From an uncultured Olleya sp. (GTDB lineage: Bacteria; Bacteroidota; Bacteroidia; Flavobacteriales; Flavobacteriaceae), in NCBI GenBank assembly GCA_947503885.1, contig CANNFD010000011.1:9310-73309 (forward strand): DNA of 64,000 nucleotides, read 5' to 3'. Position 1 is the first letter of the stretch, and every line of letters begins with the position of its first letter. This document shows, piece after piece, positions 191 through 25,928 of this stretch. A program made the position numbers and the translations under genes. Under the pieces are notes generated by a model, which was given only the letters and a program-made list of their open reading frames with translations, was not told the DNA's origin and searched no databases.

Positions 191-1361
191 TATAAACGAC
201 AAAGGGTTTTACGGGGCTTTTGGTGGTGCATACATCCCAGAGATGCTGTATCCAAATGTCGAGGAGCTTTGTCAAAACTATCTAAAAATAATGTCTGACC
301 CTTCTTTTAAAAAAGAATTTGACCAATTGTTAAAGGATTATGTTGGACGCCCTTCTCCTCTTTATTTTGCCAAACGATTAAGCGAAAAATACAATACCAA
401 AATCTACTTAAAACGAGAAGATTTAAACCATACTGGTGCACATAAAATTAATAATACTATTGGACAAATTTTAATGGCACAACGTTTGGGCAAAACTCGT
501 ATCATTGCCGAAACCGGTGCAGGTCAACACGGTGTAGCTACCGCTACGGTTTGTGCATTAATGGGTTTAGAATGTATTGTTTACATGGGCGAAATTGATA
601 TTGCACGTCAAGCTCCAAATGTTGCTAGAATGAAGATGTTAGGCGCAGAAGTACGCCCAGCATTATCAGGAAGTCGTACACTAAAAGATGCTACAAACGA
701 AGCTATTAGAGACTGGATTAATAACCCCTTAAATACACATTATATTATTGGTAGCGTTGTTGGTCCACATCCATATCCTGACATGGTTGCACGTTTTCAG
801 GCTGTCGTGTCAGAAGAAATTAAATGGCAATTACAAGAAAAAGAAGGTCGTGAAAAACCAGATTATGTTATTGCATGTGTTGGTGGTGGTAGTAATGCTG
901 CAGGTGCTTTTTACCATTATTTAGACGATACTGATGTTAAACTTATTGCTGTAGAAGCTGCAGGAAAAGGGATTCACTCAGGTGAGAGTGCTGCAACCTC
1001 TATATTAGGAAAAGAAGGTATTATTCATGGAAGCAAAACCTTGTTAATGCAAACACAAGATGGACAGATTACAGAGCCTTATTCGATTTCAGCTGGATTA
1101 GATTACCCTGGCGTTGGCCCAATGCACGCACATTTATATAAAACTGGTCGTGCCGAGTTTATCTCAATCACAGATGACCAAGCAATGACTGCAGGTTTAG
1201 AGTTAAGCCAATTAGAAGGTATTATTCCTGCAATAGAGACATCACATGCGCTGGCAATTTTAAATGATAAAAAGTTTAACAATAACGATGTTTTAGTAAT
1301 CAATCTTTCTGGTCGTGGCGATAAAGATCTACAGAATTATATAGATTATTTTAAGTTGTAA
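180..1361 (+). CDS. trpB: tryptophan synthase beta subunit
   Basis: [19 protein letters not shown]-lysine motif, [20 protein letters not shown]. Confidence 0.98.
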
Positions 1362-1479
1362 TTAATTTAACCTTAATTATTAAAGCACCTAACAAGTTAG
1401 GTTATTAAATCTAATAAAAACTTAAACCCATAAAACAGTGTGAACCCAAAATAAATTGAGGTTGACCAAAACTATTTAA

Positions 1480-2244
1480 ATGAATCGAATTCAAACAAAA
1501 CTAAAAGAAAACAAAAAGCTATTAAGCATCTATTTTTCTGCTGGATATCCAAGTATAAACGACACAGTTTCAATAATTGAAAACTTAGAACAAAATGGAG
1601 TGGACATGATAGAAATTGGTTTACCATTTAGTGACCCTTTAGCTGATGGCCCTACTATTCAAGCTAGTTCAACTCAAGCCTTAAAAAACGGGATGACGAC
1701 AAAAGTGTTATTTGACCAAATAAAAGACATCCGTAAAACAGTTACTATTCCTTTAATAATTATGGGATATTTTAATCCAATATTACAATATGGTGTAGAA
1801 GCTTTTTGTAAAAAATGTAGACAAACAGGTATCGATGGATTGATTATACCTGATTTACCTGTTGATGTTTATAACGACCAATACAAAGCAGTTTTTGAAA
1901 AATATGGTTTAATAAACGTGTTTTTAATTACTCCTCAAACTAGCGTTGATCGTATTAATTTTATTGATTCTATTTCAAACGGATTTATTTATATGGTTAG
2001 TAGTGCAAGTGTTACTGGAGGCAATTCTGGATTTGGAGCAGAACAGACAGATTATTTTAAGCGAATTGCAAAAATGAATTTAAAAAATCCTCAAATTGTA
2101 GGATTCGGAATCTCAGATAATAAAACATTTACTCAGGCTACTGAACATACAAATGGCGCCATAATAGGTAGTGCATTTATAAAACATTTAAGTAATAATG
2201 GTGTAAAAAACATTAATCAATTTGTTTCAACAATTTTAAGATAG
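1480..2244 (+). CDS. trpA: tryptophan synthase alpha subunit
   Basis: IEIGLPFSDPLADGPTIQ motif, GFGIS, follows trpB. Confidence 0.98.
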   Translation: MNRIQTKLKENKKLLSIYFSAGYPSINDTVSIIENLEQNGVDMIEIGLPFSDPLADGPTIQASSTQALKNGMTTKVLFDQIKDIRKTVTIPLIIMGYFNPILQYGVEAFCKKCRQTGIDGLIIPDLPVDVYNDQYKAVFEKYGLINVFLITPQTSVDRINFIDSISNGFIYMVSSASVTGGNSGFGAEQTDYFKRIAKMNLKNPQIVGFGISDNKTFTQATEHTNGAIIGSAFIKHLSNNGVKNINQFVSTILR

Positions 2245-2335
2245 TTTAACAAATTGACCATATTATTTAACTAAGCCTTGTGAGACAGTTGTTTAAATAA
2301 TTTTTATATTAATTATGAACTAAAAAATATAAATT

Positions 2336-2485
2336 ATGGGAATTATAAAAGATAAAAAGAAGTTTAAAACAACCGTTAAACAAACAAATCCAACTAATCC
2401 AACTGGAAACACAAAAATGGAAACTAACGATTTTGATATCGATAAAGAGACTATCAAAAAACAACAAAATAAAACTAACAGCTAA
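2336..2485 (+). CDS. small hypothetical protein, 49 aa (not in ORF track)
   Basis: ATG 2336 after an A/T-rich leader; MGIIKDKKKFKTTVKQTNPTNPTGNTKMETNDFDIDKETIKKQQNKTNS*; followed by a terminator hairpin. Confidence 0.55.
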   Translation: MGIIKDKKKFKTTVKQTNPTNPTGNTKMETNDFDIDKETIKKQQNKTNS

Positions 2486-2505
2486 TAACAATTAGTATAG
2501 TTATT

Positions 2506-2543
2506 AAATGCTTATTCAGTATATTTGAGTAAGCATTTTTTTT
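2506..2543 (+). terminator. intrinsic terminator hairpin with U-tract; overlaps a TATATTTG -7 promoter element (2520-2527)
   Basis: AAATGCTTATTCA-loop-TGAGTAAGCATTT followed by TTTTT. Confidence 0.6.
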
Positions 2544-2768
2544 ATGAAACTACTTAACGATTTCCGACTAATATTACTACTGTGTCTAACCTTAGGCTTA
2601 GCACCTTTTTTTCCAGAACCTCACCTTTGGGGTAAACTAAAATGGATAGCAGGTGGTGCAAAAGGCATGCAACTTACAGATTGGTTTGATGTATTAATGC
2701 ACGGTTTACCTTGGGTGCTTTTAATTAGACTATTAATTTTAAAACTGACCTCAAAAAATGTCTCTTAA
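2544..2768 (+). CDS. small hypothetical membrane protein
   Basis: 74 aa, two hydrophobic segments, LGLAPFFPEPHLWGKLKW motif. Confidence 0.7.
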   Translation: MKLLNDFRLILLLCLTLGLAPFFPEPHLWGKLKWIAGGAKGMQLTDWFDVLMHGLPWVLLIRLLILKLTSKNVS

Positions 2769-3213
2769 TATTGTTTTAGTTGAACCTGAAATACCAAATA
2801 ACACAGGTAATATTGGAAGACTAGCTTTAGCTTCCGGAAGTAAATTACATCTAGTAAAACCCTTCGGGTTTGAACTTAGTGACAAACGCTTAAAGCGCGC
2901 CGGATTAGACTATTGGCAACATTTAGATGTCATTATGTACGATTCTGTAGATGATTTTTTTAATAAAAATAAAGCTGCTAATTTTGCTTTTTTTTCTAGT
3001 CATGGTACTAAATCTCATTGGGATATTCCATTTAAAGACAATCAGTTTTTAGTCTTCGGAAAAGAATCGGTTGGATTAGAAAAAACTATATTAAAAACAC
3101 ATGCAAATGCTCTATACAAAATACCTTTGTATAGTAACCACATTAGAAGCCTAAACCTTGCTAACTCAGTAGGCATTGTTGTATACGAAGGTTTAAGACA
3201 ACTTCAAAAATAA
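2758..3213 (+). CDS. trmL: tRNA (cytidine/uridine-34 2'-O)-methyltransferase, SpoU family
   Basis: IVLVEPEIPNNTGNIGR, LKRAGLDYW, FGKESVGL, RSLNLANSV. Confidence 0.93.
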   Translation: MSLNIVLVEPEIPNNTGNIGRLALASGSKLHLVKPFGFELSDKRLKRAGLDYWQHLDVIMYDSVDDFFNKNKAANFAFFSSHGTKSHWDIPFKDNQFLVFGKESVGLEKTILKTHANALYKIPLYSNHIRSLNLANSVGIVVYEGLRQLQK

Positions 3214-3216
3214 TTT

Positions 3217-4152
3217 ATGGAATCTAAAAAAACTAAAGTTTTAAAATCTGTTTCAGAGTATTTTCAAATCGCATTAGGTATTGTACTAGCTAGTATAGGT
3301 TTAAAAGCTTTTTTATTACCAAATGGATTTTTAGATGGTGGAGTAACGGGAATTGCGCTACTTATTAATGGCTTAATTGGCATCAATATTTCTTTGTTAC
3401 TAGTGTTATTTAGTATTCCTTTTTTAATTATAGGATACTACACCGTTTCTAAACGTATTATACTAAAATCCATAATAAGTATTATTGGTCTTGCACTTTT
3501 TATTCATTTTGAAAATTTTGAAGTCATTACAGAAGACAAGTTTTTAATTTCAATCTTTGGTGGTTTATTTTTAGGTTCAGGAATTGGTATTGCCATCAGA
3601 AATGGTTCTGTCTTGGATGGATCTGAAATTTTAGGAATCTTTATTAATGACCGTTTTGGAATAAGTATTGGAAAAGTAATCCTACTTTTTAATGTTATAT
3701 TATTTACCATTACAGCATTTGTAATCTCTAAAGAAATAGCCATGTACTCTATTCTTACCTACATTGTGACTGCAAAGGTTACCGATCTTGTAATTGAAGG
3801 ATATGAGGATTTTATTGGAGTTTCCATCGTGTCTAAAGATTATAACGAAATTAAACTAGCAATAATTAAAGAGCTTGGTGCTGGAATGACAATTTACAAA
3901 GGTAAAAAAGGCTTTATTACTAAAGGTGAAAATGAAGATATTGATATTATACACACCATTATCAACCGTATTGACATTAAAAAAATGTATCGTATTGTAT
4001 CAAATATAGATGAAGATGCTTTTATTGTAGAGTTTGATGTTAACAATGTAAAGGGTGGTGTATTACGTCGTTATTTACATAGAAAAAAAGGCAAAAAACT
4101 AGCTAAATTCTTAGCTCAAACTGAATTAAAACAACCTGTAATAAAACAATAA
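3217..4152 (+). CDS. YitT family membrane protein
   Basis: FLDGGVTGIALL, GSVLDGSEILG, multiple TM helices, C-terminal soluble domain. Confidence 0.88.
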   Translation: MESKKTKVLKSVSEYFQIALGIVLASIGLKAFLLPNGFLDGGVTGIALLINGLIGINISLLLVLFSIPFLIIGYYTVSKRIILKSIISIIGLALFIHFENFEVITEDKFLISIFGGLFLGSGIGIAIRNGSVLDGSEILGIFINDRFGISIGKVILLFNVILFTITAFVISKEIAMYSILTYIVTAKVTDLVIEGYEDFIGVSIVSKDYNEIKLAIIKELGAGMTIYKGKKGFITKGENEDIDIIHTIINRIDIKKMYRIVSNIDEDAFIVEFDVNNVKGGVLRRYLHRKKGKKLAKFLAQTELKQPVIKQ

Positions 4153-4196
4153 AGGTGGGATTGATGTAAGGTTATTTGCCTTTTTAAAGACAAGAT

Positions 4197-4424
4197 TTAC
4201 TTCTTATTTTTCTTTAAATAATCTAAATACATGTTTTCTACTTTGGTTCTAGCCCAAGGTGTACGACGTAAAAATTTTAAACTAGACTTTACCGAAGGGT
4301 TATCGTTGAAACATTTTATATTAATAACATGTCCCATATATTCCCAGCCATAATGCGCCTGTAAATCGGTAACGATTTGTTCTAATTTAATTCCGTGTAA
4401 AGGGTTATTTTTTTGTGTTTCCAC
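4197..4424 (-). CDS. VF530/DUF2132 family putative nucleic-acid-binding protein
   Basis: [13 protein letters not shown]...HYGWE...[21 protein letters not shown]. Confidence 0.85.
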
Positions 4425-4639
4425 TAGTTGTTTTCTATTAAGCTTTTAATTTTAACTGCTTTTTCAAAATGATCCAATTTATTAGTCTTAATCCACCATG
4501 TAGCAACTTCCATAAGTAATTCTGGACTATCATTTTTATTTTTGAAAAAAGCATAAAAAGAGACTCCAACCTGATCACCCTTTTGGGCAATTTTTTGATT
4601 GCAAGTCTCAATTATTTTATTTTTTAATGCAAGAGTCAT
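4424..4639 (-). CDS. small conserved hypothetical protein (DUF6500-like)
   Basis: 71 aa, KG..VG.SFYAFF.NKND.PELLME.ATWWI pattern; stop/start overlap with the downstream gene. Confidence 0.65.
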
Positions 4640-4647
4640 GTTAAAGA

Positions 4648-5955
4648 CTAACTGTTAGATCGTCTACTGTCGTTGTTTCTGCTTTTAGACTTGCTTCTAT
4701 TACGACCACCTGAGTTTGAAGACGAATTACCTCTAGATTTACCTTTTTCGCCTTTAGGCTTATTGTTTCTAGGTTGTTGTCTTCTGTTTTGTCCTGGTTT
4801 AATTGGCACTGTTGAGGCGTTAGGGTCTGGCTCAAAACCTTCTAAAATATCAACTGGCAACTTCATACCAATTAATTTTTCGATATCTCTTAAAAAAGTA
4901 GTCTCGTCTGCACTTACCAAACTTATTGCTTCACCATTAGCTCCTGCACGACCTGTACGACCAATTCTGTGTACATAATCTTCAGAGATATTTGGGATTT
5001 CAAAGTTAATAACGTGAGGTAATAAAGGGATATCTAAACCACGAGCAGCAATATCTGTTGCTACTAAAACACTTACACTTCCGTTTTTAAATCCAGCCAA
5101 TGCTTTTGTACGTGCACCCTGACTTTTATTTCCATGGATTGCAGCTGCTTTAATACCAGCTTTAATCATTTTTTCTACTAACTTGTTGGCACCATGCTTA
5201 GTACGTGTAAAAACAAGTACTTGTTTCCAATTACCATCATTAATTAACTTAATAATTAAATCCGTTTTCTTTGCTTTAGCAACTCTATATATTTTTTGTG
5301 CAATAGCATCAACCGTTGTGTTTTCTGGAGTCGCTTCTACTTGTACAGGACGATTTAAAATTCCGTTTGCTAGTTTTCTAATATCTTTAGAGAACGTAGC
5401 AGAGAACATTAAGTTTTGACGTTTGTCTGGCATAAGTTTCATTACGCGCTCAATATCGCGTAAAAACCCCATGTCTAGCATACGGTCTGCTTCATCTAAA
5501 ACAAAAATTTCTACACGTTTTAAAGACAGTAAGCCTTGGCTTTCTAGATCTATTAAACGCCCAGGTGTCGCAACTAACACATCAATACCTTGACGTATTG
5601 TTGCAGCTTGAGGTTTTTGATTAACCCCTCCAAATATAACAGCACTTCTCAAGTTTAAAAACTCGCTATACTCTTTTACATTTGCATATACTTGTGCTGC
5701 TAACTCACGTGTTGGCGTTAAAATTAACGCACGGATAGGTCTATATTTTTCTTTCGGGTTTTCCGATAATATGTGTAATAATGGCAGTGTAAAACCTGCT
5801 GTTTTACCAGTTCCTGTTTGTGCAGAAGCTAAAACATCGCGACCTTCTAATACTGGTGGAATGGCTTTTGCTTGAATTGGACTTGGTGTAGTGTATCCTT
5901 TTTTACTAATTGCTTTTAGTAAGGCTTCGGATAAGCCTAAAGATTGAAATGACAT
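4648..5955 (-). CDS. rhlE: DEAD-box RNA helicase (RhlE-like)
   Basis: [31 protein letters not shown]; basic disordered C-tail. Confidence 0.9.
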
Positions 5956-21861: not shown

Positions 21862-22542
21862 ATGAAACTAGTTATAACTTGTGAGCATGGCGGAAACACT
21901 GTTCCTGTAGAGTTTAAACACCTTTTTAAAGACACTACTATTTTAGATACACATAGAGGGTATGATTTGGGCGCTTTAGATGTTTTTAATTATTTAAAAC
22001 CATTAGCCGATTATTCAAATTACTGCACAACAAGTAGGCTATTAATAGAACTGAACAGATCTTTAAATCATAAAAATTTATTTTCAGAATTTACTAAACC
22101 CCTTTCAACAAATAAAAAAAACATAATAATACAAGAGCATTATAAAGGATATAGGGAAGCAGTAACACAATATATTTTTAACACTATTAATAAAAACGAA
22201 CCCGTTTTACATCTATCAATCCACACGTTTACACCTACTTTAAATTTAGTTAAAAGACATTGTGACATTGGACTATTGTACGACTCTAGAATAAAAAAAG
22301 AAAAACAATTTGCAGTAGATTTTAAAAAGCAGTTATCATCTATAAACCCAAACTATTTAGTAAGATTTAATTATCCTTACCTAGGAAAATCTGATGGTTT
22401 TACAACAGCATTAAGGCAGCGTTTTACAAAAAACTACATTGGTATTGAGATAGAAATCAATCAAGCTTATTCCAAAAACAACAAAATGCCTGAAGCCATT
22501 AAAATACTATTAAAAAAAAGCATATTAAAACTTAAAGCATAA
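21862..22542 (+). CDS. N-formylglutamate amidohydrolase family protein
   Basis: ITCEHGGN, THRGYDLGA, SRLLIELNRS, LSIHTFTP, GIEIEINQ. Confidence 0.88.
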   Translation: MKLVITCEHGGNTVPVEFKHLFKDTTILDTHRGYDLGALDVFNYLKPLADYSNYCTTSRLLIELNRSLNHKNLFSEFTKPLSTNKKNIIIQEHYKGYREAVTQYIFNTINKNEPVLHLSIHTFTPTLNLVKRHCDIGLLYDSRIKKEKQFAVDFKKQLSSINPNYLVRFNYPYLGKSDGFTTALRQRFTKNYIGIEIEINQAYSKNNKMPEAIKILLKKSILKLKA

Positions 22543-22572
22543 AAAAACCGTTACAAATTGTAACGGTTTTTT
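22541..22572. terminator. bidirectional intrinsic terminator
   Basis: AAAAAAACCGTTACAA-ATTGTAACGGTTTTTT between convergent genes. Confidence 0.8.
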
Positions 22573-22591: not shown

Positions 22592-25500
22592 TTACTTTTT
22601 TACTACAATCTTTTTAGTAAAGCTTCTGCCTTCAGAATTTAGTTTTAATATATAAAGCCCAGCTGCTAAATCTTTTGTCTGAATAACATTTGTATTGCTA
22701 TTTAAACTTCCAGAAAGCACTTGCTTACCATTTAAATCTATCATCATATAATTTAATATTTCACCTTCAAATAAAGTGATATCAACATTTAAACTATTGA
22801 CTACAGGATTAGGATATAATTTAATATCATCAATTAGATTTACCTCATCTATTCTGTTGTCAGTTTCGACTACTTCTTCAGCTTGATCTGCTTGTTCAGC
22901 GTTAACCGTTTCATCTTTAGTTTCATTAATAATTACCTTATCTGTAGACCCAGTAATAATAACCATAATAGAAACTCCAGCAGTATCTATATCTGCACAA
23001 ATCTCATTATTAGTAATCATTATAGCTAAGTCATTAATAGTAGTAACTCCTAAATTAATATCAGTTAGATCTAGTGTACTTGGATCATAAGCTATTGTAT
23101 GTATATTGTAATAACCTCCTAATTCTGGTAAACTGATTGTAGTCAAATCACTAATTGTTGTAATTACTGAATTTGAAGCATTTGATAATAAAGTACCTGT
23201 AACATATCCACTTGGTACAATTGCGTCACCTGTAGGTAAAATAGTTGCAAACGTCTGAACACCTTCTGTAATAATTATAACACTAGACACTATCGAAGCT
23301 GTACCTGCGTAAACAGATTCACACTCTAAAGCATCTACAAGCGTAAAGTTTATGGTTTGTGTATCACATAATGTTGCGCTACAATAATTACCAGAAAACA
23401 CTTCTGCTTGCACTTCAAAATTACCTAAACCTAAACTCCAAGCAGCTCCTCCTGCTGGATATGTATAAGGAATCACATTTTCTGTAATTACAGTTGATGC
23501 ATTTGTATCTAAATTAGTTACAGTTAATCTTACGCTTTCAGACTCTCCTGCTACAATTGCATCTACATAAAAATCTGCTGGTAAATCTGAAATATTATAA
23601 GATTCTCCATCGACAATGGTTGTGTTTACTGTTCCATCAGAAAAAGCAAATTGATCAATAACACCACAATCATCAACATCACAATTAGTTATAGTAAATG
23701 TTACACAAGCGCTATCGCACTCTGCTCCATTAGCACCGTCCAGCTTATAAACACTAGAACAGAAGTTAAATGTACCACATCCAAGTGTCCATACTTGATA
23801 GGTTGCTCCAGGGAATGTATATGGCAATACGTTTTCAAGTTTAGTATACACTTCACCCGTATCTACATTTGTTAGTGTATTAAAAGCACTTTCAATATTA
23901 CCAGACGTTAATACGTTAATATTAAAATTAGCTGGTATATTATTAAAATCATAACTACCTCCATCTACAATCGCAACTGTAGGGTCTGAAGTAAAGTTTG
24001 AAAATTCAAAACCTGTGATAGTACCACAATCTGAGATTAGACCACAACCATCATTAATACTTGCAGTATTACCGCTAGTATCAACATAACCAATAACCTG
24101 AACTAGTCCACCAAAAGTAATTCCTAATAAATCTTGAGAACATGAAGTATGTATTTGTGCAGTTGCACCATTGATGTAAACCTCAAAATCTTTAACTAAT
24201 TTATCACCAGTTGCAATAGCAGTGTATGTTCCATCACCATTATTAACTACAGTTCCTGAGTTAGTTGTAACAGTCCCAGAACCAGAATAATTAAAAGTTA
24301 ATTCTACTAATCCTCCTTGACAAGGACAATCAGGTATAGACCCATCAAATAAGGTGAATTTAAGGTAATCATAATCACACTTATCCCCCATTGCATTATC
24401 TAATTTGAAGATTTCTGCTTTTACTTTAAATTCCGAAATCCCTAAACTCCAAGATGTACCATCGTTAGGGTATGTAAAAGCTTGGTCATTATCAATCGAA
24501 ATAAACTCGTTACCAGTATCTTCATTTTTAACACTAAATCTTACACTCTCTGGAAATCCAGATAATACTACTTCTACATAAAAATTAGCTGGTAAGGTAT
24601 TAATATCATAACTATCACCATCAACAATTGGGATGCTTGTAACACCATCTGTAAACACAAAACCTGTAACAGTCCCACAATCTGGTGCTGCAATACAACC
24701 ATCTGTTAAACTTGCACTATTACCATCAGTATCTACATATCCAATAACTTGTACTCCACCTGTAAAAGTAACACCTAAAACATCTTGAGAACAAGAAGTA
24801 TGTATTTGTGCAGTATTACATCCGTTAGTAACAATTTCTAAGTTTTTATCTAATTTTAAACCGTTATCAGAAACCGTATAAGTGCCATCTCCGTTATTAG
24901 TTATACTTCCAGTATTAGTTGTTATAGAACCTCCTCCAGAATACGTAAAAGTCACCTCTGTCATTCCTCCTTCACAAGCACAATCGGGCGCTAAAACATC
25001 TGTAATAGTAAACTTAATAGTTTCTTTATCACAGTAACTTCCTTGACAGTAATTATACTTAAAAATTTTAGCTTCTATTTCAAATTCTCCTGTACCATAA
25101 CTCCATGCTGCATTTCCGCCAGGTGCTGTATATGGTAAGTGGTTTTCTCCGATAGTATATTCTGCGCCTGTATCTTTATTTTTTAATTTAAAGCTAGCAC
25201 TTTCAGAATACCCATCAACTAATAAGTCAACATAAAAGTTTGCAGGTAATTGGTCTAAACTATATTCGCCATCATTAACGATAGCAACAGAGTTAGTTCC
25301 ATTTGAAAATTGAAACCCATCAATATCTCCACAATTAGGAGTTGATAAAATTTCAAATTTTATAGTTTCGCTATCACAATAAGAGCCATAACAACTATTA
25401 TACTTATATAATTTAGCTTTAACTTCAAACTCTCCATAGCCAAAATTCCACGCTCCGTTTCCACCTGGAAAAGTATATGGCAAATGGTTTTCTGTTATGC

Positions 25501-25781
25501 TATAGTTTTGACCTGTGCTTAAATTTTTGACATAAAATTTAGCACTTTGTGAATAGCCATTAACAATTAAGTCAACATAAAAATTGTTTGGTAAATCGCC
25601 TATATAATAGGATTGGTCATTACTGATTGTAACACTTGAGCTTCCGTTTGAGAATTCGAAACCTGCAATATTACCGCAGTAAGTTTCATCAAAAGCAACA
25701 GCTTGAAATGAATACATTAAAGCTACAATACTAAATATGGCCTTAAAATTTAGGGTGGGTTTAGGTATTTTTTTTTAACAT
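22592..25781 (-). CDS. T9SS type A sorting-domain repeat protein; N-terminal signal peptide is out of frame at an A9 run (25768-25776)
   Basis: C-terminal IKLYPNPV...LAAGLYILKL...TKKIVVKK CTD; five A and two B Cys-containing repeats; track ORF 22592-25717; upstream ATG 25781 is one base out of frame. Confidence 0.8.
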
Positions 25782-25928
25782 ACTAGAGGATTTTTGATTA
25801 ATTATATTTACATATGCAAATCTAAATAACAAAATTTTCCTACAAAAAAATAATAGCTAAAGCGCAATTAAAAACTTTAAAGAGACATATCCCTCTGATA
25901 TTCTGAAACGTATATTATTACAAAACAA

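What the first reader, a model, noticed from the sequence alone, without database searches (positions are those of the whole stretch)
25717..25781. Signal peptide of the T9SS protein is switched off by one extra A in an A9 tract (possible phase variation)
Seen: on the minus strand ATG(25781)-TT-A9-TACCTAA reads MLKKNT*. With A8 it reads MLKKIPKPTLNFKAIFSIVALMYSFQAVA|FDET, a textbook Sec signal peptide in frame with the 1041-aa ORF. The track ORF (MYSFQAVA...) lacks a usable signal. Known: T9SS cargo needs Sec export, and homopolymer slippage near the start of surface-protein genes is a classic ON/OFF switch. A sequencing homopolymer error is an equally simple explanation.
Basis: partly seen in the sequence, partly recalled or inferred. 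Interest (0 to 1): 0.65.

Follow-up and report, generated by a model that had tools for sequence, protein, structure and literature searches.

The report
Extra A breaks a secretion signal
In this marine Olleya genome, one extra A in a run of nine cuts the export signal off a large surface-protein gene; this is most likely an ordinary, recent slippage mutation at a mutation-prone spot, not a proven on/off switch.

Summary
On the minus strand, ATG 25781 + TT + A9 (25776-25768) reads MLKKNT-stop. The 1041-aa ORF (25717-22592) carries a type-A T9SS C-terminal domain. It stays open upstream to 25774, in the frame one base off.

All 8 congeneric Olleya genomes and 5 metagenomic relatives keep this ATG in frame with a homologous signal peptide. 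They are exactly 1 nt shorter at the run. So the frameshift removes a real, conserved Sec signal.

Indirect evidence favours a real allele over an assembly error:
- Contig ends overlap by exactly 77 nt, which points to a short-read de Bruijn assembly.
- Only 3 other frame breaks appear among about 1535 orthologues, the same level as a finished relative.
- About 640 other coding A/T runs of 8 or more are intact.

Evolved phase variation is not supported. The Olleya orthologues have only A3-A6 here. A8-A10 runs sit in the first 15 codons of 57 intact genes, consistent with a by-product of AAA lysine codons. No other gene shows a 5' tract in the OFF state.

Best reading: a recent, potentially reversible +1 slippage null allele, resembling the 5' poly(A) frameshift of Listeria inlA. 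Interest is low to moderate.

The parts
25817..25846 (-). Promoter-like element of Bacteroidetes type: TTTG-N18-TAGATTTG (-33/-7 motifs), ending 36 nt upstream of the ATG
   Evidence: Pattern search. On its own it is not above chance (4 matches against 5 expected in the window). It sits in the expected place, and its core (TTGTAGG..., TA..TTTG) is conserved in the 8 Olleya orthologues.
25779..25781 (-). Ancestral start codon ATG, conserved in all orthologues, with A at -3 and at -10 to -14
   Evidence: The context rule (A at -3, -6, -12, -13 favours initiation in Flavobacterium johnsoniae) comes from PMC6847099. The annotated ATG 25717 has T at -3.
25768..25776 (-). A9 homopolymer (T9 on the + strand). 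It is one base longer than the in-frame length and is the site of the frameshift.
   Evidence: All 8 Olleya orthologues are 1 nt shorter here.
25761..25781 (-). Six-codon remnant ORF MLKKNT-stop, produced by the frameshift
25718..25774 (-). Stranded part of the signal-peptide coding region (KKIPKPTLNFKAIFSIVAL). It is in frame with the long ORF but has no ATG/GTG/TTG start.
   Evidence: It is homologous to orthologue N-termini such as MNKLLPNLTLNFRALFSIVALIFSVQAYA.
25694..25717 (-). Annotated start and end of the former signal peptide (MYSFQAVA). The predicted signal peptidase I site A-V-A|F lies after 25694.
   Evidence: The conserved FSFQxxA|[FL][DE]DTxCG motif is seen in the orthologues. 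The cleavage site is inferred from the AXA rule and was not computed with a predictor.
22592..25717 (-). 1041-aa ORF: five ~115-aa beta-sandwich repeats (starting at aa 14, 129, 347, 564, 684), two ~100-aa Cys-rich modules (aa 244, 462; weak DUF7467 match), a further beta-rich region, and the T9SS C-terminal domain
   Evidence: AlphaFold model with mean pLDDT 72 and repeats at 80-90. Foldseek returns only generic strings of Ig/FN3-like domains, S-layer proteins and large adhesins.
22598..22819 (-). T9SS type A C-terminal sorting domain (aa 967-1040)
   Evidence: PF18962 E=3e-13 and TIGR04183 E=2.5e-13.
22541..22571 (.). Hairpin flanked by A and T runs: a bidirectional intrinsic-terminator-like site between the convergent genes
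   Evidence: Read directly. It was not scored with a tool.

Best explanation
The gene encodes a large, Cys-rich, multi-beta-sandwich surface or secreted protein. It is exported first by Sec, through an N-terminal signal peptide, and then by the type IX secretion system, through its C-terminal domain. In the lineage of this strain, substitutions in codons 2 and 5 (TAT to TTA, TTA to ATA) fused the two lysine codons into an A8 run. Replication slippage then added one A, giving A9. Translation from the conserved ATG now stops after 6 codons. Any product restarted at ATG 25717 lacks the charged n-region and most of the hydrophobic core, so it should stay in the cytoplasm and never meet the T9SS. 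The allele is therefore a recent secretion-null allele, a young pseudogene. The promoter, the start codon, all 1041 codons and the terminator are still intact. The tract is an incidental hypermutable site, so back-slippage to A8 can occur at the elevated rate typical of long A runs. It is not an evolved contingency locus. Shown: the frameshift, the homology of the stranded codons, the lineage-specific tract, and the rarity of frame breaks in the assembly. Inferred: that the A9 is in the DNA and not an error, the loss of export, and reversibility.
For:: exact anatomy; the 8 Olleya orthologues keep the ATG and the frame, are 1 nt shorter at the run, and have conserved promoter-like upstream DNA; nearly all protein homologues, and 5 of 6 metagenomic loci, start with the homologous signal peptide. 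T9SS C-terminal domain present; SprA and GldM intact, so the secretion pathway exists; 22 contig-end pairs overlap by exactly 77 nt, which indicates a short-read de Bruijn assembly, where a consensus error at A9 is rare; tblastn of ORFs from 2.4 Mb of the finished Olleya sp. YS genome finds only 3 split-frame loci among about 1535 orthologues; the reverse test finds about 5 in the finished genome, so this is background level; about 640 sense A/T runs of 8 or more inside ORFs are intact, and 57 genes carry A8-A10 in their first 15 codons; this is the only gene in which a 1-nt change in a 5' run restores a signal peptide; a second T9SS cargo gene (LamG + C-terminal domain; 1425 aa in the relative) is broken at a G5 run. 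Two of 42 T9SS cargo genes against 2 of about 2479 others gives Fisher p=0.0016. That fits real mutations under relaxed selection on surface proteins better than random sequencing errors; a whale-fall metagenome contig about 97% identical to the orthologue in another Olleya genome (handle G001) has lost the promoter, 5'UTR and first codons by a deletion between 12-nt direct repeats. That is an independent natural 5' knock-out or remodelling of the same gene. Precedent: the Listeria inlA 5' poly(A) tract, which gives an 8-aa product when out of frame (PMC2831843).
Against: No reads could be inspected, so an assembly error is not excluded. All frame breaks in this assembly lie at homopolymers (G5, T7, A9, and a minor one at T5). 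Both slippage and sequencing chemistry would produce that pattern. No second genome of the same species exists in the collections searched, so the allele's frequency in nature is unknown. Loss of export is inferred from general Sec/T9SS knowledge, not measured.
Confidence: 0.6

Rival explanations
1. Assembly or sequencing artefact: the DNA has A8, the gene is intact, and the extra A is a homopolymer miscall.
For: Homopolymer length is the classic weak point of sequencing. The gene is otherwise perfect: promoter, ATG, 1041 codons and terminator. All frame breaks found in this assembly are at homopolymers. Reads could not be checked.
Against: The 77-nt contig-end overlaps point to a short-read de Bruijn assembly. 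Platforms prone to homopolymer errors would leave far more than about 4 frame breaks in about 1535 orthologues, and a finished relative shows as many. About 640 other coding runs of 8 or more are in frame. One of the other breaks is at a run of only 5 G, where miscalls are very unlikely. Breaks are enriched in T9SS cargo genes.
Confidence: 0.2
2. Evolved phase variation: the A tract is a contingency locus that switches this T9SS cargo ON (A8) and OFF (A9/A7) at high frequency, and the culture was sequenced mostly in the OFF state.
For: A +/-1 change toggles the signal peptide, and the rest of the gene is intact. The protein is a surface-type protein, the usual target of such switches. Two distant orthologues carry an in-frame A9 at the same codons (ATG+A9+TTA, MKKKL). 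Expression of this gene family is also lost by another route in nature, and a second T9SS cargo gene is frameshifted in this genome. Poly(A) tracts at 5' ends as reversible inactivators are documented (PMC2831843).
Against: The tract is not conserved: the 8 Olleya orthologues have A3-A6. A8-A10 runs in the first 15 codons occur in 57 genes, consistent with a by-product of AAA lysine codons, and none of the others is OFF. MutS and MutL are intact. No tract-length polymorphism has been observed, and no second strain is available. The library holds no paper on repeat-mediated phase variation of T9SS cargo or in Flavobacteriia.
Confidence: 0.15
3. Recoding: the A9 allele is still expressed, either because RNA polymerase slips on the A9 run and makes A8 mRNA, or because ribosomes shift +1 on AAA-AAA-A. 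The protein would then be made and exported at a reduced level.
For: The A9 length equals the RNA:DNA hybrid length at which transcriptional slippage becomes appreciable, and slippage frequency rises exponentially with run length (PMC5574713). A +1 shift of tRNA-Lys from AAA to the next AAA would give exactly the A8 product (sequence logic).
Against: Slippage at A/T runs gives mainly insertions. Deletions, which are needed here, are rare, and that study saw no restoration of broken frames. No orthologue uses such a site, and there is no stimulatory structure or conserved shift site. At best this is a leak, not a programme.
Confidence: 0.05

Closest known systems
Listeria monocytogenes inlA 5' poly(A) homopolymeric tract (Orsi, Bowen & Wiedmann 2010, PMC2831843)
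   Same: A poly(A) run lies in the first codons (signal-peptide region) of a gene for a surface protein that also carries a C-terminal sorting signal. The out-of-frame length gives a peptide of a few residues (8 aa there, 6 aa here). Related lineages carry an interrupted, stable version of the tract. Reversion is measurable (A6 to A7 about 5.5e-7).
   Different: In inlA the polymorphism was seen in many isolates and the switching was measured. Here there is one assembly and no measurement. The organism is Gram-positive with a sortase/LPXTG signal, not a T9SS C-terminal domain. The OFF state there is a deletion (A6); here it is an insertion (A9).
Neisseria pilC poly(G) and opa CTCTT repeats within the signal-peptide coding region (from memory, not checked here)
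   Same: A repeat inside the leader-peptide coding sequence sets the reading frame of an outer-surface protein.
   Different: Those tracts are conserved across strains, sit in multigene phase-variable repertoires, and switch at 1e-3 to 1e-4. None of this is shown here, and the conservation test failed.
Poly-G/C contingency loci of Campylobacter, Haemophilus and Helicobacter (for example the review PMC8355987, listed)
   Same: Intragenic homopolymer with an ON/OFF effect on surface structures.
   Different: Those genomes hold dozens of over-represented long G/C tracts, against their base composition. Here the A tract follows the base composition and lysine codon usage.
Frameshifted genes at poly(A) tracts in Buchnera/Blochmannia, partly rescued by transcriptional slippage (PMC5574713; PMC3017870, listed)
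   Same: AT-rich genome, poly(A) frameshift in an otherwise intact gene, possible leaky expression.
   Different: Rescue is described for tracts of about 10 or more and mostly through insertions. Here a deletion in the mRNA is needed. The organism is free-living with intact mismatch repair.
Phase variation in Bacteroidota by invertible promoters or shufflons (from memory; inversion survey PMC9881135, listed)
   Same: Same phylum, with surface structures as targets.
   Different: The mechanism there is site-specific inversion. No recombinase or inverted repeats flank this gene. Its neighbours are GCS2 ligase, FGase, NUDIX and PRTase genes.

Membership tests
T9SS type A cargo protein | C-terminal type A sorting domain (TIGR04183 / PF18962) | tested here: met
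   aa 967-1040, E=2.5e-13 and 3.2e-13, above the curated cut-offs.
T9SS type A cargo protein | N-terminal Sec signal peptide in frame with the mature protein | tested here: not met
   In the assembled sequence the signal peptide is split by the frameshift. It is present and in frame in all orthologues. The gene as assembled is therefore a disrupted member.
T9SS type A cargo protein | T9SS machinery present in the same genome | tested here: met
   SprA (2749 bits, 2401-aa open frame) and GldM (476 bits) are intact. There are 42 PF18962 matches in the genome. Other core components were not searched.
Simple-sequence contingency locus (phase variation) | Hypermutable repeat placed so that a change of one unit switches expression | tested here: met
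   A9 in codons 2-5; A8 joins the ATG to the ORF.
Simple-sequence contingency locus (phase variation) | Tract maintained in related strains or species beyond what composition explains | tested here: not met
   The 8 Olleya orthologues have A3-A6. 57 genes in this genome have A8-A10 in their first 15 codons, in line with AAA lysine codon usage. Two distant orthologues have an in-frame A9, which fits recurrent KKK codons and not a maintained switch.
Simple-sequence contingency locus (phase variation) | Tract-length heterogeneity within a culture or between isolates | not testable with these tools
No second genome or metagenome contig of the species was found.
Simple-sequence contingency locus (phase variation) | Reversible high-frequency switching with a phenotype | not testable with these tools
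   This needs fluctuation assays or reporter fusions.
Programmed frameshift / transcriptional-slippage recoding site | Shift site conserved in orthologues, with both frames required | tested here: not met
   Every orthologue that retains the start region (one whale-fall contig has lost it by deletion) encodes the signal peptide and mature protein in one frame.

The most novel reading that the evidence does not exclude
The A8/A9 tract works as a real, reversible ON/OFF switch for a T9SS-secreted adhesin-like protein in a free-living marine flavobacterium. It would be part of a wider habit of this group of toggling or discarding individual T9SS cargo genes at their 5' ends or at homopolymers. 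Supporting hints are a second cargo gene broken at G5 in this genome and an independent promoter/start deletion of the orthologue in a whale-fall metagenome. This would be the first repeat-mediated phase variation described for T9SS cargo.
Probability: 0.12. Interest if true: 0.55.

Novelty: new member of a known kind. Interest (0 to 1): 0.25.

Why it matters
If the allele is real, this strain cannot display one of its 42 T9SS cargo proteins. That matters for anyone using the strain for adhesion, biofilm or algal-interaction work, and for annotation: the gene should be flagged as frameshifted, not called from the internal ATG. More generally, in AT-rich Bacteroidota the lysine-rich start of signal peptides creates long A runs in dozens of secreted-protein genes. 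This gives a built-in, cheap route to lose, and possibly regain, single surface proteins. Whether marine flavobacteria exploit that route is open, and could be tested with amplicon sequencing of this tract.

Tried and rejected
2. An exact 29-mer scan of metagenome contigs for the same species found nothing. The protein's 90% cluster has one member, and genome contigs returned only O. aquimaris at 69% identity. So there is no second strain.
3. A generic scan for ORF merging at all 4398 homopolymers and a first N-terminal scan were too noisy. They flagged adjacent genes and internal sites. A stricter scan and homology-based tblastn replaced them.
4. Alternative start in the long frame: there is no ATG/GTG/TTG between 25774 and 25718. 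Only ATA and ATT codons occur there, so this was rejected as unlikely. ATG 25717 also has a poor context (T at -3; rule).
5. A hypermutator background was rejected: MutS and MutL are intact and frame breaks are few.
6. A nearby invertase or other switch machinery was rejected: the neighbours are housekeeping genes.
7. Function of the protein: a PDB sequence search hit only the C-terminal domain of a lipase. The fold search gave only generic Ig/FN3-like multidomain hits with TM about 0.1. No specific function can be assigned.
8. An apparent stop inside a T9SS C-terminal domain match at C1:294072 is simply the natural stop codon.
9. Earlier notes of this scan on the same genome concern other loci and did not bear on this finding.

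Full report
WHAT IS THERE. The window lies in contig 11 of a 3.04-Mb, 43-contig, 32% GC genome. Homologues place it in the genus Olleya, family Flavobacteriaceae. The nearest is a 1086-aa protein of O. aquimaris DSM 24464, 69% identical. On the minus strand the sequence reads ATG (25781-25779) TTA AAA AAA AAT ACC TAA, that is MLKKNT-stop, with an uninterrupted A9 at 25776-25768. The frame one base off is open from 25774. It reads KKIPKPTLNFKAIFSIVAL and then M(25717)YSFQAVAFDETYCG..., and continues for 1041 codons to TAA 22594-22592. There is no ATG, GTG or TTG between 25774 and 25718. The protein ends in a type A T9SS sorting domain (PF18962 and TIGR04183, aa 967-1040).

IS THE UPSTREAM PIECE REALLY A LOST SIGNAL PEPTIDE? 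Yes. A whole-genome search of 40 relatives found the orthologous 5' region in 8 of 10 other Olleya genomes. In the alignment, all eight keep the ATG and encode a one-frame leader of the form M[YC]K[KL]LPN.TLNF[RK]ALF..VAL.FSFQ..A followed by [FL][DE]DT.CG. The window sequence needs exactly one 1-nt gap in all eight, placed at the run. The protein homologues show the same leader, as do five of six metagenomic loci. The joined reading has a charged n-region (four Lys), a 12-residue hydrophobic core and an A-V-A|F cleavage motif. The annotated N-terminus has none of the first two. My crude heuristic scores the two as positive and negative respectively. No dedicated predictor was available.

The upstream DNA is also conserved, including TTTG-N18-TAGATTTG at 25846-25817, which matches the Bacteroidetes -33/-7 promoter pattern. 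The pattern alone is not above chance in the window. ATG 25781 has A at -3 and at -10 to -14, positions that favour initiation in Flavobacterium johnsoniae (PMC6847099). ATG 25717 has T at -3. A hairpin with flanking A and T runs follows the stop codon. The gene is thus a complete monocistronic unit whose only visible defect is one nucleotide.

REAL ALLELE OR ASSEMBLY ERROR?
- Twenty-two pairs of contig ends overlap by exactly 77 nt. This is the signature of a de Bruijn-graph assembly of short reads with final k=77, where a consensus error at a 9-mer is rare.
- I fetched 2.4 Mb (80%) of the finished genome of Olleya sp. YS, translated its ORFs and ran tblastn against this assembly. About 1535 ORFs had hits of 60% identity or more (median identity of all best hits 84%). 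Only three loci are split between frames. The first is a 1425-aa LamG + T9SS C-terminal-domain protein, broken at a G5 run where the relative's frame needs one more base. The second is a PIF1-like helicase, broken at a T7 run where the relative has T6. The third is a minor C-terminal difference.
- The reverse comparison finds about five such loci in the finished genome. So the assembly shows background levels of frame breaks, not the tens to hundreds expected from chemistries prone to homopolymer errors.
- About 640 sense-strand A or T runs of 8 or more inside ORFs are in frame.
- Two of the four frame breaks hit T9SS cargo genes, which number 42. The comparison with about 2479 other genes gives Fisher p=0.0016. 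The caveats are small numbers and the pre-selection of this gene.

Random miscalls should not prefer one functional class. Real mutations under relaxed or fluctuating selection on surface proteins would. I put the odds at roughly 4:1 that A9 is what the sequenced DNA mostly contained.

IS IT A PHASE-VARIATION SWITCH? The anatomy allows it, since a change of one base toggles the leader. The comparative tests do not support an evolved switch.
- The tract is lineage-specific. The eight Olleya orthologues have ATG TAT AAA AAA TTA or variants, with runs of only 3 to 6 A. The in-frame A8 precursor requires TAT to TTA in codon 2 and TTA to ATA in codon 5.
- Long A runs at the 5' end are commonplace in this genome. 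Fifty-seven ORFs carry A8-A10 within their first 15 codons, many of them MKKN.../MKKK... leaders. This is consistent with what AAA lysine codons in a 32% GC genome would produce.
- Two distant orthologues have ATG+A9+TTA (MKKKL) in frame at the same position. This fits recurrent lysine codons, not a maintained switch.
- A genome-wide scan of 4398 homopolymers for cases where a 1-nt change near a 5' ORF boundary reconnects an upstream ATG returned 42 candidates. This gene is the only one in which the change is within the first codons and restores a signal-peptide-like N-terminus. There is thus no set of 5' tracts in OFF state.
- Mismatch repair genes are intact, and no recombinase is nearby.

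MOST LIKELY MECHANISM. This is a recent +1 replication-slippage event in an incidental A8 tract. Its effects would be as follows. Ribosomes starting at the favoured ATG terminate after six codons. Any re-initiation at ATG 25717, 44 nt downstream, would give a leaderless protein rich in conserved cysteines. That protein cannot enter the Sec pathway and therefore cannot reach the T9SS, which acts on periplasmic substrates (established knowledge of T9SS, not tested here). The mutation must be young, or must revert often, because a 3.1-kb frame in a 32% GC genome is still fully open and the promoter is conserved.

Back-slippage is expected at the elevated rate of long A runs. For scale, Listeria inlA A6 to A7 occurs at about 5.5e-7 and A7 to A6 at about 3.9e-8, against less than 3e-10 for an interrupted tract (PMC2831843). 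Leaky rescue by RNA polymerase slippage is possible but should be weak. Slippage at A/T runs yields mainly insertions, whereas a deletion is needed here (PMC5574713).

THE PROTEIN. The protein has five ~115-aa repeats (starting CG.I.GF.FSNG), two ~100-aa Cys-rich modules, a further beta-rich region and the C-terminal domain. The AlphaFold model (mean pLDDT 72; repeats 80-90) is all-beta. Foldseek returns only generic strings of Ig/FN3-like domains, an S-layer protein and a large adhesin repeat, with TM about 0.1. A sequence search of the PDB hits only the C-terminal domain. I call it an adhesin-like surface protein of unknown ligand. The family is confined to Olleya, Lacinutrix, Mesoflavibacter and related metagenomic sequences.

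COMPARISON WITH THE KNOWN. The closest documented case is the 5' poly(A) tract of Listeria inlA. It is the same kind of gene, the tract sits in the same position, it gives the same few-residue product, and it has interrupted stable alleles in sister lineages. The classic contingency loci (Neisseria pilC/opa, Campylobacter poly-G) share the logic. They also have conserved tracts and observed polymorphism, which are not found, or not testable, here. I found no paper in the library linking repeat-mediated phase variation to T9SS cargo or to Flavobacteriia.

VERDICT. The switched-off signal peptide is correct as a description of the assembly. Phase variation is possible but unsupported, and it fails the conservation test. 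This is an ordinary kind of event, a young homopolymer frameshift pseudogene or null allele, in a slightly interesting place. Interest 0.25.

Noticed in passing
G000:C2:349884-349888 (outside the window; locus L137, ORFs 1876-4686 and 410-1891, minus strand): A second large T9SS cargo gene (LamG/Laminin_G_3 domain plus Por_Secre_tail; 1425 aa in Olleya sp. YS) is split into 936 + 493 aa at a G5 run. The relative's frame needs one more base there.
   Followed up: partly
G000:C11:95696-95702 (same contig, about 22 kb beyond the window's end; locus L138): A PIF1-like helicase with HRDC and HTH_40 domains (812 aa in the relative) is split 173 + 646 aa at a T7 run, where the relative has T6. The site is 650 nt from the contig end.
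   Followed up: partly
L145:1-260 (whale-fall metagenome contig AAGA01010657.1) compared with L005 (another Olleya genome, handle G001) and L141 (TARA): A contig about 97% identical to the orthologue in G001 lacks the promoter-like region, 5'UTR and first ~10 codons. The junction lies in a 12-nt direct repeat (TGGTTAATTTTA) that is present twice in the intact relatives. This suggests a repeat-mediated deletion of about 124 nt, which leaves a shorter possible leader, MVNFKAMLVLLAMTFSFQSFA.
   Followed up: partly
L140:139-150 and L146 (about 1440-1460): Two distant orthologues (Lacinutrix-like metagenome contigs) begin ATG + A9 + TTA (MKKKL...). So an in-frame A9 sits at the same codons where this genome has its out-of-frame A9.
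   Followed up: yes
G000:C22:2170-2178: A T9/A9 run joins two overlapping ORFs (an HTH-type N-terminal part and a second ORF) in a 3.5-kb contig. It looks like the programmed -1 frameshift site of an IS3-family transposase, judged from memory of the family and not tested.
   Followed up: no
G000, all contig ends: Forty-four directed end-to-end overlaps of exactly 77 nt, which indicates a de Bruijn assembler with k=77. Many tiny contigs (210-1300 nt) are probably repeat fragments.
   Followed up: yes
window 22541-22571: A perfect hairpin (ACCGTTACA...TGTAACGGT), flanked by an A run on one side and a T run on the other, lies between the convergent T9SS cargo gene and the FGase gene. It is a likely bidirectional terminator.
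   Followed up: no
window 22592-25717 (protein P0001): The internal architecture is 5 x ~115-aa beta-sandwich repeats plus 2 x ~100-aa Cys-rich modules with a weak DUF7467 match. This repeat family has no Pfam model and is restricted to Olleya, Lacinutrix and Mesoflavibacter. Orthologues differ in repeat number (603-1086 aa).
   Followed up: partly
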